NCBI RefSeq assembly: GCF_003334815.1
Contig: NZ_QOWO01000007.1
Direction: 5' to 3' (one strand)
Length of the DNA stretch: 64,000 bases
Source: Escherichia coli
GTDB lineage: Bacteria > Pseudomonadota > Gammaproteobacteria > Enterobacterales > Enterobacteriaceae
Part shown: positions 48,280-51,368 of the stretch, piece by piece
Numbering within the stretch: position 1 is the stretch's first letter
Layout of the letters: each line of letters begins with the position of its first letter
The notes under the pieces: generated by a model
The model's input: only the letters and a program-made list of their open reading frames with translations
What the model was told of the DNA's origin: nothing
Database searches by the model: none
Position numbers and translations under genes: made by a program

Positions 48280-48512
48280 TGAGATCCCGTTATTTTTATC
48301 AATTTTTGTTGCTATCCGATCGCAAAAAAGCCACGTCATATGATCAGATAATTCTGATAATGATAGACGCTATTTAACACTTCACACGGTTTGTATACGG
48401 AAAAGCATTTTGCTTTTTGTATTCAATTTAGACAGAATTTTATTAATCATTTCAGGGTAATGGGGTGATGAGATGTTGCGTAACAGGGCCAGAAGGCTAG
48501 ACTACAAAATAA

Positions 48513-49517
<1,005 letters not shown>

Positions 49518-49563
49518 CAAAAGCAATTTTTCCGGCTGTCTGTATACAAAAACGCCGCAAAGT

Positions 49564-49577
49564 TTGAGCGAAGTCAA
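49564..49577 (+). promoter_or_regulatory. FNR-binding site of the fnrS promoter (class II, centred about -42)
   Basis: TTGAG-cgaa-GTCAA centred about 42 bp upstream of the FnrS 5' end. Confidence 0.65.
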
Positions 49578-49612
49578 TAAACTCTCTACCCATTCAGGGC
49601 AATATCTCTCTT

Positions 49613-49734
49613 GCAGGTGAATGCAACGTCAAGCGATGGGCGTTGCGCTCCATATTGTCTTACTTCCTTTTTTGAATTACTGCATAGCACAATTGATTCG
49701 TACGACGCCGACTTTGATGAGTCGGCTTTTTTTT
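49613..49734 (+). ncRNA. fnrS: FNR-activated small RNA FnrS (about 122 nt)
   Basis: GCAGGUGAAUGCAACGUCAAGCGAUGGGCG... ending in the GCCGACU-uugaug-AGUCGGC hairpin plus a U8 run. Confidence 0.85.
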
Positions 49735-49791
49735 GCCTGTTATTTATCAGCGTCTACCCTTTAAGAGTCCACCCAATGACCAGAGGGAAAT

Positions 49792-49965
49792 ATGACGACA
49801 CTTATTTATTTGCAAATTCCTGTCCCTGAACCGATTCCTGGCGATCCTGTTCCAGTGCCCGATCCGATCCCTCGCCCGCAACCCATGCCTGACCCACCAC
49901 CCGATGAAGAACCGATTAAATTGTCGCATCGTGAGCGTAGATCTGCGAGGATACGCGCCTGCTAA
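49792..49965 (+). CDS. Candidate small proline-rich protein (57 aa), not in the ORF track
   Basis: ATG 5 nt after a GAGG Shine-Dalgarno; MTTLIYLQIPVPEPIPGDPVPVPDPIPRPQPMPDPPPDEEPIKLSHRERRSARIRAC; stops 29 nt before the dbpA GTG. Confidence 0.4.
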   Translation: MTTLIYLQIPVPEPIPGDPVPVPDPIPRPQPMPDPPPDEEPIKLSHRERRSARIRAC

Positions 49966-49994
49966 CTTTGCGTCGATGACCACGAGAATAGATT

Positions 49995-51368
49995 GTGACC
50001 GCTTTTTCTACCCTGAATGTTTTGCCTCCCGCCCAACTCACGAACCTTAATGAGTTGGGTTATTTAACCATGACGCCGGTGCAGGCCGCCGCGCTTCCGG
50101 CGATCCTTGCCGGAAAAGATGTTCGCGTGCAGGCGAAAACCGGCAGCGGCAAAACGGCGGCTTTTGGCCTCGGCTTGTTACAGCAAATTGATGCGTCGCT
50201 ATTTCAAACCCAGGCTTTAGTGCTGTGTCCTACGCGTGAACTGGCGGATCAGGTGGCAGGTGAATTGCGTCGGCTGGCGCGTTTTCTGCCAAATACCAAA
50301 ATTTTGACGTTGTGCGGTGGTCAACCGTTCGGTATGCAGCGTGATTCGTTGCAACATGCGCCGCATATTATCGTGGCAACGCCGGGGCGTTTGCTGGATC
50401 ACCTGCAAAAAGGCACGGTATCACTGGATGCGTTGAATACGCTGGTGATGGATGAGGCCGACCGCATGCTGGATATGGGATTTAGCGATGCCATTGATGA
50501 TGTCATCCGTTTTGCGCCTGCATCTCGACAGACGCTTCTGTTTTCGGCAACCTGGCCGGAAGCCATCGCTGCAATCAGCGGACGAGTGCAACGCGATCCT
50601 TTGGCGATTGAAATTGACTCAACAGATGCTTTGCCACCCATTGAACAACAATTTTATGAGACATCCAGCAAAGGCAAAATTCCTCTGTTGCAACGGTTAT
50701 TAAGCTTGCATCAGCCATCCTCTTGCGTGGTGTTTTGCAATACCAAAAAAGATTGCCAGGCTGTCTGCGACGCGCTGAATGAAGTAGGGCAAAGTGCATT
50801 GTCATTACACGGCGATTTGGAGCAACGCGATCGCGATCAGACCCTGGTACGTTTTGCTAACGGTAGCGCCCGTGTACTGGTCGCGACTGATGTTGCTGCG
50901 CGTGGTCTGGATATTAAATCGCTTGAGCTGGTGGTGAACTTTGAGCTGGCGTGGGACCCTGAAGTTCATGTACATCGCATCGGTCGTACAGCTCGTGCAG
51001 GAAATAGCGGTCTGGCGATCAGTTTCTGTGCTCCGGAAGAAGCACAGCGGGCCAATATCATTTCTGACATGTTGCAGATAAAACTTAACTGGCAAACGCC
51101 GCCAGCTAATAGTTCCATTGCGACGCTGGAAGCAGAAATGGCAACGTTGTGTATCGATGGCGGGAAAAAAGCCAAAATGCGCCCGGGTGATGTATTAGGT
51201 GCACTGACAGGAGATATCGGGCTTGATGGCGCAGATATTGGCAAAATCGCCGTGCATCCGGCGCATGTCTATGTCGCGGTCCGTCAGGCTGTTGCTCATA
51301 AAGCATGGAAACAGTTACAGGGCGGGAAGATTAAAGGAAAAACGTGCCGGGTGCGGTTATTAAAATAA
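49995..51368 (+). CDS. dbpA: ATP-dependent DEAD-box RNA helicase DbpA, 457 aa (GTG start)
   Basis: ORF 49995..51368; motifs AKTGSGKT, DEAD, SAT, HRIGRTAR. Confidence 0.95.
   Translation: MTAFSTLNVLPPAQLTNLNELGYLTMTPVQAAALPAILAGKDVRVQAKTGSGKTAAFGLGLLQQIDASLFQTQALVLCPTRELADQVAGELRRLARFLPNTKILTLCGGQPFGMQRDSLQHAPHIIVATPGRLLDHLQKGTVSLDALNTLVMDEADRMLDMGFSDAIDDVIRFAPASRQTLLFSATWPEAIAAISGRVQRDPLAIEIDSTDALPPIEQQFYETSSKGKIPLLQRLLSLHQPSSCVVFCNTKKDCQAVCDALNEVGQSALSLHGDLEQRDRDQTLVRFANGSARVLVATDVAARGLDIKSLELVVNFELAWDPEVHVHRIGRTARAGNSGLAISFCAPEEAQRANIISDMLQIKLNWQTPPANSSIATLEAEMATLCIDGGKKAKMRPGDVLGALTGDIGLDGADIGKIAVHPAHVYVAVRQAVAHKAWKQLQGGKIKGKTCRVRLLK

What the first reader, a model, noticed from the sequence alone, without database searches (positions are those of the whole stretch)
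49792..49965. Unlisted 57-codon proline-rich ORF between fnrS and dbpA
An ATG sits 5 nt after a GAGG Shine-Dalgarno and opens a 57-codon frame encoding MTTLIYLQIPVPEPIPGDPVPVPDPIPRPQPMPDPPPDEEPIKLSHRERRSARIRAC. It was missed by the ORF track because it is under 60 aa. It ends 29 nt before dbpA, which starts with GTG and has only a weak Shine-Dalgarno. The PPP/PxP runs are the kind of sequence that stalls ribosomes without EF-P, so it could act as an upstream ORF coupling dbpA translation to elongation capacity, or it could be a small protein in its own right. I cannot verify from memory whether it is already annotated.
Basis: seen in the sequence. Interest (0 to 1): 0.5.

Follow-up and report, generated by a model that had tools for sequence, protein, structure and literature searches.

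The report
Known small-protein gene ynaL upstream of dbpA
The 57-codon proline-rich reading frame is real, but it is the already annotated and experimentally detected E. coli small-protein gene ynaL, so the finding is ordinary; only its function and any link to the neighbouring helicase gene dbpA remain open.

Summary
The ORF at 49792-49965 is exactly as described. It is not unlisted. RefSeq annotates it as ynaL, "proline-rich small protein YnaL" (WP_001296046.1); the stretch is present in 5393 of 5426 complete E. coli genomes. It is a full-length match to Pfam PF23677. VanOrsdel et al. 2018 detected the protein by chromosomal SPA tagging, and it has tetracycline and retapamulin ribosome-profiling support.

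Across 67 Enterobacteriaceae species:
- The (X-P)n core is under strong purifying selection (dN/dS 0.08, against 0.04 for dbpA).
- 64 of 67 species have a correctly spaced Shine-Dalgarno and ATG.
- The N-terminus is nearly free to vary.
- The last ~17 codons are constrained as nucleotides, not as codons.

The two invariant 3' blocks align with a near-consensus TG-extended -10 promoter in outgroups that lack ynaL. They are therefore probably dbpA's own promoter, embedded in the 3' end of ynaL (inferred; no TSS data could be retrieved).

The EF-P-sensing uORF idea is untested, and the comparative data lean against simple translational coupling:
- dbpA keeps its GTG start and weak SD in species without ynaL.
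- The stop-to-start gap varies from 14 to 63 nt.
- No RNA structure exceeds chance.
- PPP is lost in 4 of 67 species.

Verdict: already known, low interest.

The parts
49613..49730 (+). fnrS sRNA (context; its terminator stem is at 49707-49726, followed by a T run)
   Evidence: Rfam RF01796, 134.8 bits, E 6e-26; terminator scan
49733..49760 (+). Candidate ynaL promoter: TTGCCT (49733-49738), 16-nt spacer, TACCCT (49755-49760). Weak (7 of 12) but conserved; the -35 overlaps the end of the fnrS terminator T run. Inferred only.
   Evidence: The motif GCCT...CAGCGTCTACCCT is conserved after the terminator in the 67 species listed. The simple scanner does not call it.
49783..49786 (+). Shine-Dalgarno GAGG of ynaL, 5 nt before the ATG
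   Evidence: Sequence. An SD-like 4-mer, mostly GGAGG, lies 4-16 nt before the ATG in 64 of 67 species.
49792..49965 (+). ynaL CDS, 57 codons plus TAA; product 'proline-rich small protein YnaL' (WP_001296046.1)
   Evidence: RefSeq annotation; Pfam PF23677, E 2.2e-40, model positions 1-57 of 57; identical sequence listed as ynaL in PMC6001520 and PMC11188072
49840..49908 (+). Conserved (X-P)n core, codons 17-39 (GDPVPVPDPIPRPQPMPDPPPDE); the part under protein-level purifying selection
   Evidence: Diversity at codon positions 1, 2, 3 = 0.098, 0.063, 0.514; dN/dS 0.08; dS 1.30. Invariant residues P16, P21, P27, P29, P31, P33, D34, P35. AlphaFold pLDDT about 90 with no secondary structure.
49894..49902 (+). 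P35-P36-P37 (CCA CCA CCC) within DPPPD; potential EF-P-dependent stall site
   Evidence: Sequence. PPP retained in 63 of 67 species. D before PPP is in the strong-stalling class (PMC4176338). Stalling itself was not tested.
49803..49902 (+). C-rich, G-poor, unstructured stretch of the transcript (41 C, 16 G per 100 nt). Rut-like if left untranslated; a by-product of the CCN codons.
   Evidence: 99.97th percentile of C minus G among all 100-nt windows of the 64-kb window; leader fold z = +1.7
49912..49927 (+). Block A, CCGATTAAATTGTCGC: nucleotide-level conserved block inside ynaL (codons P41-H46). Aligns with the AAATGACC (-35) region of outgroup dbpA promoters; TTGTCG is at 49921-49926.
   Evidence: Third-position diversity 0.119 against about 0.5 in the core; alignments; retained in Kluyvera, which lacks ynaL
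49939..49959 (+). Block B, AGATCTGCGAGGATACGCGCC: probable dbpA promoter. TG extension at 49944-49945, -10-like GAGGAT at 49947-49952, GC-rich discriminator ACGCGCC. The transcription start inferred near 49959-49960 was not measured.
   Evidence: Diversity 0.06, 0.11, 0.08 at the three codon positions; dS 0.12; dN/dS about 1.1. Invariant even in the 12 species whose ynaL stops upstream of it. Homologous to ATGACC-17-TAGAAT with TG in outgroups.
49983..49997 (+). dbpA weak SD (CGAGA, 49983-49987) and GTG start (49995-49997); dbpA CDS runs 49995-51368
   Evidence: GAGA plus GTGAC is conserved in all 14 aligned loci, including those without ynaL. GTG start in 65 of 67 species.

Best explanation
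Shown: this is ynaL, a known protein-coding gene found in many genera of Enterobacteriaceae, always between the fnrS terminator and dbpA. It has its own conserved Shine-Dalgarno and ATG. It is translated in E. coli. Its roughly 23-residue (X-P)n core, DPxPxPDPIPRPQPMPDPPPDE, is under purifying selection as strong as that on a normal enzyme gene.

Inferred (about 0.65): the 3' third of the ORF is conserved as DNA, not as protein, because dbpA's own promoter is embedded there. Block B would supply a TG-extended -10 plus a GC-rich discriminator, and block A the upstream element. The basic tail RSARIRAC is therefore a passenger of the promoter sequence, and 12 species dispense with it. On this reading dbpA is transcribed both from this internal promoter and by read-through from ynaL, since no terminator lies between the two genes.

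Inferred (about 0.5): the functional product is the free peptide. It would be an extended, acidic, polyproline-II-like rod with no globular fold that works by binding a partner in trans, plausibly one connected with DbpA or 50S subunit assembly given the strict synteny.

Not excluded (about 0.15-0.2): a cis role of the nascent chain.
For: Identity: RefSeq annotates ynaL, WP_001296046.1, in all 30 records sampled across the identity range; 5393 of 5426 genomes hold the stretch. Pfam PF23677, E 2.2e-40, full length. Identical sequence and coordinates in PMC6001520.

Translation: SPA-tag immunoblot in LB, and positive in tetracycline ribosome profiling. Retapamulin TIS count 6, RPF count 20. SD plus ATG in 64 of 67 species.

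Selection: core dN/dS 0.08 with dS 1.30, against the dbpA control at 0.038 and 1.53. Within-Escherichia dN/dS 0.059. 162 homologues, all PF23677, in Citrobacter, Salmonella, Enterobacter, Klebsiella, Kosakonia, Leclercia and others.

Embedded promoter: block B shows no codon periodicity and dS 0.12. It is invariant in the 12 species where it is untranslated. It is retained in Kluyvera and L081, which have lost the Pro-rich ORF. It aligns with ATGACC-N17-TGCTAGAAT-GCGCGCC upstream of dbpA in genera with unrelated upstream genes, and the scanner calls that element a promoter with a TG extension.

Shape: AlphaFold gives no secondary structure, pTM 0.22, and pLDDT about 90 only over residues 21-40. 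PMC11188072 lists a 'consensus disorder prediction'.
Against: No function is known for YnaL and no partner has been identified; the trans-acting reading is an inference from selection and shape. The promoter assignment has no experimental transcription start behind it: the TSS datasets I tried were not held. The simple sigma-70 scan finds no promoter in the window at 49400-50200. In E. coli the -10-like hexamer is poor (GAGGAT), and the -35-like TTGTCG sits 20 nt away, not 17. Ribosome-profiling support in rich medium is weak (6 initiation reads, 32% of the ORF covered). The architecture of a variable N-terminus followed by a conserved ~22-residue segment ending at a PPP motif also fits a ribosome-arrest peptide.
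Confidence: 0.8

Rival explanations
1. One reading: ynaL is a regulatory upstream ORF. Ribosomes stall at DPPPD when EF-P or prolyl-tRNA capacity is limiting, and this changes expression of dbpA on the same transcript. In effect it would be an arrest or leader peptide that ties a 50S-assembly helicase to elongation capacity.
For: Strict synteny with dbpA in all 67 species that have ynaL. No terminator lies between the two genes. PPP is kept in 63 of 67 species, mostly as DPPPD, and D before PPP is in the strong-stalling class. The conservation pattern resembles an arrest peptide: a variable N-terminus (dN/dS about 0.64), then about 22 conserved residues ending at PPP-D-E, with the rest explained by DNA-level constraint. 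The PPP-to-block-B spacing is fixed at 44 nt in 66 of 67 species. Proline-based leader peptides are an established regulatory device, for example SecM and MgtL (review PMC12856214).
Against: dbpA's GTG start and GAGA SD are the same in Kluyvera and in outgroups without ynaL, so they do not indicate dependence on the uORF. A probable dbpA promoter lies downstream of the stall site. The stop-to-start gap varies from 14 to 63 nt. No RNA structure above chance could transmit a stall to the dbpA RBS (z = +0.12 and +1.7), and there is no Rfam hit. PPP is replaced by PSP or PPQ in 4 species. The tagged protein accumulates to detectable levels. No ynaL entry was found in the held Δefp/ΔefpL profiling tables.
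Confidence: 0.15
2. Polarity model: the peptide sequence is secondary. What matters is that translation of ynaL covers an unusually C-rich, unstructured RNA segment. Without that cover Rho would load and terminate ynaL-promoter transcripts before they reach dbpA.
For: 41 C against 16 G in 100 nt, the 99.97th percentile of the window. The leader is less structured than all 100 shuffles. EF-P loss combined with rut sites causes Rho-dependent loss of downstream expression in reporters (PMC5021804).
Against: C-richness follows automatically from CCN codons. A dN/dS of 0.08 shows that amino-acid identity is selected, not merely the act of translation or base composition. The C-rich stretch lies upstream of the PPP site, so a ribosome stalled there would block Rho rather than expose the site (geometry; inference). 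Rho dependence was not tested.
Confidence: 0.1
3. Not a functional gene: the open frame persists only because it overlaps conserved DNA elements (the dbpA promoter and the fnrS flank), or the real gene is the 78-codon antisense ORF at 49747-49983.
For: The 3' third of the ORF is indeed constrained at the nucleotide level. Initiation-profiling counts are low. An antisense ORF exists.
Against: The core shows classic third-position wobble in the ynaL frame with dS equal to that of dbpA. SD and ATG are conserved in 64 of 67 species. The protein has been detected. The antisense frame mirrors the codons exactly, so the variable sense third positions are antisense first positions, and CCN read backwards (NGG) can never be a stop. 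Its openness is therefore mechanical (plus coordinate arithmetic).
Confidence: 0.02

Closest known systems
YnaL family (Pfam PF23677; RefSeq WP_001296046.1, 'proline-rich small protein YnaL')
   Same: Identical 57-aa sequence, identical position between fnrS and dbpA, and a full-length HMM match.
   Different: Nothing; this is the family's E. coli K-12 member. No function is assigned to the family.
Proline-based regulatory leader or arrest peptides (SecM upstream of secA; MgtL upstream of mgtA)
   Same: A short ORF just upstream of a larger gene; a conserved peptide segment ending in a proline motif that is hard to translate; a variable N-terminus (review PMC12856214).
   Different: No alternative RNA structure links ynaL to the dbpA RBS. 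A probable promoter for the downstream gene lies between the stall site and that gene. The stop-to-start distance is not conserved. Arrest has never been shown. The protein accumulates.
EF-P-dependent polyproline genes with Rho-mediated polarity (Elgamal, Artsimovitch and Ibba 2016, PMC5021804)
   Same: A PPP motif plus C-rich, unstructured RNA upstream of a downstream cistron.
   Different: The C-rich tract lies upstream of PPP, not downstream of it. No Rho terminator is documented here. ynaL was not among the genes analysed in that paper.
TonB proline-rich spacer ((EP)n-(KP)n; Pfam TonB_N PF16031)
   Same: An alternating X-Pro repeat predicted to be an extended rod.
   Different: Not significant as homology: Pfam E 0.75; NCBIfam TonB 20.8 bits against a cut-off of 315. 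YnaL has no TonB C-terminal domain and no membrane anchor. The resemblance is compositional.

Membership tests
YnaL family (PF23677) | Significant, full-length match to the Pfam YnaL HMM | tested here: met
   E 2.2e-40, 136.8 bits, query 1-57 against model 1-57 of 57
YnaL family (PF23677) | Same protein as the RefSeq/K-12 ynaL product, in the same genomic position (fnrS - ynaL - dbpA) | tested here: met
   WP_001296046.1 is annotated on the 100%-identical stretch; sequence and neighbours are identical to Table 1 of PMC6001520; fnrS confirmed by Rfam
YnaL family (PF23677) | Protein actually made | not testable with these tools
   Taken from the literature: SPA-tag immunoblot and tetracycline Ribo-seq (PMC6001520); retapamulin TIS count 6 (PMC11188072)
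Ribosome-arrest or leader peptide controlling the downstream gene (SecM/MgtL type) | Located on the same transcript, upstream of the regulated gene | tested here: inconclusive
   No terminator between ynaL and dbpA, but a probable dbpA promoter lies inside the ynaL 3' end. No TSS data could be retrieved.
Ribosome-arrest or leader peptide controlling the downstream gene (SecM/MgtL type) | An RNA structure (RBS sequestration, or terminator/antiterminator) whose state depends on ribosome position | tested here: not met
   MFE z = +0.12 for 49885-50035 and +1.7 for 49735-50035; no Rfam match at E <= 1
Ribosome-arrest or leader peptide controlling the downstream gene (SecM/MgtL type) | Conserved arrest sequence ending at the stall codon | tested here: inconclusive
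   The conserved core ends at PPP-D-E and the N-terminus is variable, but PPP is lost in 4 of 67 species, and the same pattern fits a trans-acting peptide
Ribosome-arrest or leader peptide controlling the downstream gene (SecM/MgtL type) | Demonstrated elongation arrest and an effect on the downstream gene | not testable with these tools
   Needs toeprinting, profiling in Δefp, and reporter fusions
Translationally coupled gene pair (termination-reinitiation) | Overlapping, or very short and conserved, stop-to-start distance | tested here: not met
   Gap is 29 nt in E. coli and ranges from 14 to 63 nt across 67 species
EF-P-dependent polyproline ORFs | PPP or a strong XPP/PPX motif in a stall-promoting context | tested here: met
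   DPPPD at codons 34-38; D before PPP is in the strong class (PMC4176338)
EF-P-dependent polyproline ORFs | Reduced output or increased pausing without EF-P | not testable with these tools
   ynaL is absent from the held supplementary tables of PMC11611912
TonB-type proline-rich domain | Significant match to TonB models | tested here: not met
   Pfam TonB_N E 0.75; NCBIfam NF008084 20.8 bits against a cut-off of 315

The most novel reading that the evidence does not exclude
The most novel reading not excluded is that the conserved YnaL core acts in cis as a nascent-chain, EF-P- or proline-sensitive pause element. It sits a fixed 44 nt upstream of the dbpA -10 element. Ribosome pausing there, and with it the behaviour of the coupled RNA polymerase as it crosses the embedded dbpA promoter, would tune production of the 50S-assembly helicase DbpA to the cell's elongation capacity. 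That would be a new arrest-peptide/promoter arrangement with no RNA switch.
Probability: 0.1. Interest if true: 0.6.

Novelty: already known. Interest (0 to 1): 0.15.

Why it matters
As a discovery it does not matter. The gene is annotated, has a Pfam family, and its product has been detected. What remains of value is narrower. YnaL is one of many validated E. coli small proteins with no known function, and the comparative anatomy worked out here gives a sharper starting point for studying it:
- Only the (X-P)n core is selected as protein.
- The basic tail is a by-product of what looks like the dbpA promoter.
- Kluyvera has lost the ORF but kept that element.

This tells experimenters which residues to mutate. 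It also warns that a 3' tag or deletion of ynaL will probably disturb dbpA transcription. Finally, it shows that the natural test of the EF-P idea must separate read-through transcripts from those starting at the internal promoter.

Tried and rejected
1. rRNA mimicry. From memory, block B (GAGGAUACGCGCCUGC) looked like 23S rRNA near helices 90-92 (GUGGUACGCGAGCUGG), the DbpA target, which suggested autoregulation. Local alignment of 49905-49997 against 23S 2454-2606 and against the whole rrlH scored no better than shuffles (663 of 1000 and 206 of 300 shuffles scored at least as high). Rejected.

2. RNA switch or RBS sequestration at the ynaL-dbpA junction. Folding z-scores were +0.12 and +1.7, and there was no Rfam match at E <= 1. 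Rejected.

3. Pairing between blocks A, B and the dbpA SD, checked by eye: only 4-bp matches, and these are broken by the natural C/A polymorphism in block B. Rejected.

4. Sigma-E, sigma-54, sigma-32 or MerR-type (long-spacer) promoter readings of blocks A and B, judged from memory of the consensus sequences: no match, and the spacer between the blocks is not conserved, so there is no operator. Not pursued.

5. TonB homology: compositional only.

6. Anti-phage defence and solved-structure relatives: none.

7. Experimental transcription-start and transcript-boundary data for dbpA/ynaL: the supplements of Cappable-seq, SMRT-Cappable-seq and the Rend-seq annotation paper either do not contain the region as stored or are not held.

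8. EF-P dependence data: ynaL is not in the held tables of the EF-P/EfpL profiling paper; dbpA appears only for its own PPI motif, with pause scores near 1.

9. Supplements of VanOrsdel 2018 and of the Mg-starvation small-protein paper are not held.

10. The antisense 78-codon ORF: a mechanical mirror of the CCN codons.

Full report
OBSERVATION.
- ATG at 49792, preceded by GAGG (49783-49786) and 5 nt.
- 57 codons giving MTTLIYLQIPVPEPIPGDPVPVPDPIPRPQPMPDPPPDEEPIKLSHRERRSARIRAC.
- TAA at 49963-49965, then 29 nt to the dbpA GTG at 49995.
- Upstream are zntB (48534-49517) and the sRNA gene fnrS (49613-49730; Rfam RF01796, 134.8 bits), with its terminator at 49707-49726 plus a T run.

IT IS ALREADY KNOWN. 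A megablast of 49560-50100 against 5426 complete E. coli genomes found the stretch in 5393. All 30 records sampled across the identity range annotate it as 'ynaL: (proline-rich small) protein YnaL'. The annotated CDS has the same boundaries and the product is WP_001296046.1. The protein is a full-length member of Pfam PF23677, 'Protein YnaL-like' (E 2.2e-40).

VanOrsdel et al. 2018 (PMC6001520) list ynaL between fnrS and dbpA at MG1655 1409308-1409481 with the identical 57-aa sequence. They detected it by chromosomal SPA tagging and immunoblot in LB. They note that it was also an unidentified positive in a tetracycline ribosome-profiling screen, and they already remark that it lies next to dbpA and might form an operon with it.

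Fesenko et al. 2024 (PMC11188072, Table S4) list it with 6 retapamulin initiation-site reads, 20 RPF reads covering 32% of the ORF, a within-Escherichia dN/dS of 0.059, and a disorder prediction. I found no paper in the searchable library that assigns YnaL a function.

COMPARATIVE ANATOMY. I fetched dbpA loci from one genome per species (80 loci). A Pro-rich ORF sits immediately upstream of dbpA in 67 of them, including Escherichia, Citrobacter, Salmonella, Enterobacter, Klebsiella, Raoultella, Kosakonia, Leclercia and Lelliottia. A protein search gave 162 homologues, all carrying PF23677.

The N-terminal ~16 residues are almost free to vary (dN/dS about 0.64). Codons 17-39 (GDPVPVPDPIPRPQPMPDPPPDE) have diversity 0.098, 0.063 and 0.514 at codon positions 1, 2 and 3, with dN/dS 0.08 and dS 1.30. 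That is the same regime as dbpA codons 2-120 (dN/dS 0.038, dS 1.53). In 64 of 67 species a GGAG/GAGG-type Shine-Dalgarno lies 4-16 nt before an ATG that sits 55-60 nt after the fnrS terminator. The frame is a real gene, and selection acts on the amino-acid sequence of the core, not merely on its being translated.

THE 3' THIRD IS SOMETHING ELSE AS WELL. From codon 40 onwards the conservation loses its codon periodicity. Block A (CCGATTAAAwTGTCGC, 49912-49927) has third-position diversity of only 0.12. Block B (AGATCTGmGAGGATACGCGCC, 49939-49959) has diversity 0.06, 0.11 and 0.08, with dS 0.12 and dN/dS about 1.1. The 11 nt between the blocks are variable.

In 12 of 67 species a stop codon falls between the blocks, so the protein ends at ...SHR or ...SR. 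Block B is still invariant in those species. Kluyvera and one MAG have lost the Pro-rich ORF altogether but keep the fnrS terminator, a block-A-like sequence and block B.

Cedecea, Dryocola, Atlantibacter and Siccibacter lack both fnrS and ynaL and have unrelated genes upstream. At the homologous position, about 45 nt before the dbpA GTG, they carry AAATGACC-N17-TGCTAGAAT-GCGCGCC. The consensus scanner calls that element a promoter with a TG extension (ATGACC/17/TAGAAT).

I therefore infer that blocks A and B are dbpA's own promoter region. In E. coli this would be TG at 49944-49945, -10-like GAGGAT at 49947-49952, a GC-rich discriminator, and a start near 49959-49960. On this reading the basic tail RSARIRAC of YnaL is a translation of promoter DNA.

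There are caveats:
- The E. coli hexamers are weak.
- The -35-like TTGTCG is 20 nt from the -10-like hexamer.
- The scanner finds nothing in the window itself.
- I could not retrieve experimental start-site data.

Evidence for:
- Strict synteny with dbpA.
- No terminator between the two genes.
- DPPPD is conserved (PPP in 63 of 67 species), and Starosta et al. 2014 place its context among the strong stallers.
- The conservation pattern looks like an arrest peptide.
- The PPP-to-block-B spacing is constant at 44 nt.

Evidence against:
- dbpA's GTG start and GAGA SD are the same in species without ynaL, so they cannot be read as dependence on an upstream ORF.
- The probable promoter lies downstream of the stall site.
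- The stop-to-start distance ranges from 14 to 63 nt.
- The junction RNA is no more structured than shuffles (z = +0.12), and the whole leader is less structured than shuffles (z = +1.7). There is no Rfam hit.
- PPP is replaced in E. albertii, two Citrobacter species and one other.
- The tagged protein accumulates.

A related polarity idea rests on the core RNA being extremely C-rich and G-poor: 41 C against 16 G per 100 nt, the 99.97th percentile of the window. Elgamal et al. 2016 showed that loss of EF-P combined with rut sites causes Rho-dependent loss of downstream expression. However, the C-rich tract lies upstream of PPP, and its composition follows automatically from CCN codons. None of these cis models can be tested with sequence alone.

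WHAT THE PROTEIN LOOKS LIKE. AlphaFold on a 25-species alignment gives no secondary structure and no tertiary fold (pTM 0.22). Local confidence is high only over residues 21-40, which fits an extended polyproline-II-like rod. There are no relatives among solved structures, no defence-system family, and only compositional resemblance to the TonB proline spacer.

REJECTED SIDE IDEAS. My recollection that block B resembles the 23S rRNA site bound by DbpA did not survive a shuffle test. The 78-codon antisense ORF is a mechanical mirror of the CCN codons.

VERDICT. The claim that the ORF is unlisted is wrong. The reading that it is a small protein in its own right is right and already published. 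The EF-P uORF coupling idea is an untested hypothesis that the comparative data make less likely in its simple translational form. Novelty: already known. Interest: low (0.15). The one point that may be new is the evidence that the dbpA promoter is embedded in the 3' end of ynaL. That bears on how ynaL mutants and tagged alleles should be interpreted.

Noticed in passing
window 49912-49959 (blocks A and B inside the ynaL 3' end): Two nucleotide-invariant blocks with no codon periodicity, conserved even where they are untranslated or where ynaL is absent. They are homologous to a near-consensus TG-extended -10 promoter with a GC-rich (rrn-like) discriminator upstream of dbpA in outgroups, so they are probably the dbpA promoter. 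The published chromosomal 3' SPA tag on ynaL would sit next to or inside this element.
   Followed up: yes
L072, L073, L076, L078 (Kluyvera) and L081, about 130 nt upstream of dbpA (start at 2501; 1495 in L078): These genomes keep fnrS, its terminator, the CTACCCT motif and blocks A and B, but lack the roughly 130 nt that encode the Pro-rich part of ynaL. This looks like a clean secondary loss of the ORF that spares the flanking elements.
   Followed up: partly
L022, L031, L032, L040, L042, L047, L049, L052, L057-L059, L062 (linker between blocks A and B): In 12 of 67 species ynaL ends at ...SHR* or ...SR*, upstream of block B. The basic tail RSARIRAC is therefore dispensable, and YnaL comes in a long and a short natural form.
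   Followed up: yes
L005 (E. coli strain E69), ynaL: A 46-aa allele with an in-frame 11-codon deletion (PEPIPGDPVPV) between the two near-identical IPVP(E/D)PIP repeats. This suggests repeat-mediated slippage that preserves the reading frame.
   Followed up: no
window 49733-49760: A conserved TTGCCT-N16-TACCCT motif directly after, and overlapping, the fnrS terminator T run in nearly all 67 species and in Kluyvera. It is a candidate weak promoter for ynaL, and the arrangement raises the question of whether ynaL is also fed by fnrS read-through under anaerobiosis.
   Followed up: partly
window 48473-48520 (+): A 15-codon [18 protein letters not shown], 13 nt upstream of zntB. RefSeq annotates it as protein YnaN, and Fesenko et al. 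list it with 112 retapamulin TIS reads.
   Followed up: partly
L002 (E. coli R6, NZ_CP107178.1), between fnrS and ynaL: This strain's match is 7 nt longer than the window (548 against 541 nt). The ynaL start is shifted by 7 nt, but the YnaL protein is identical, so the indel lies upstream of the ORF, in or next to the fnrS/candidate-promoter region.
   Followed up: partly
window 49803-49902 (+): The strongest C-over-G bias on the + strand of the 64-kb window (41 C, 16 G), in RNA that folds worse than all shuffles. It would be rut-like if left untranslated. Another comparably biased region lies on the - strand near 58540, and I did not examine it.
   Followed up: partly
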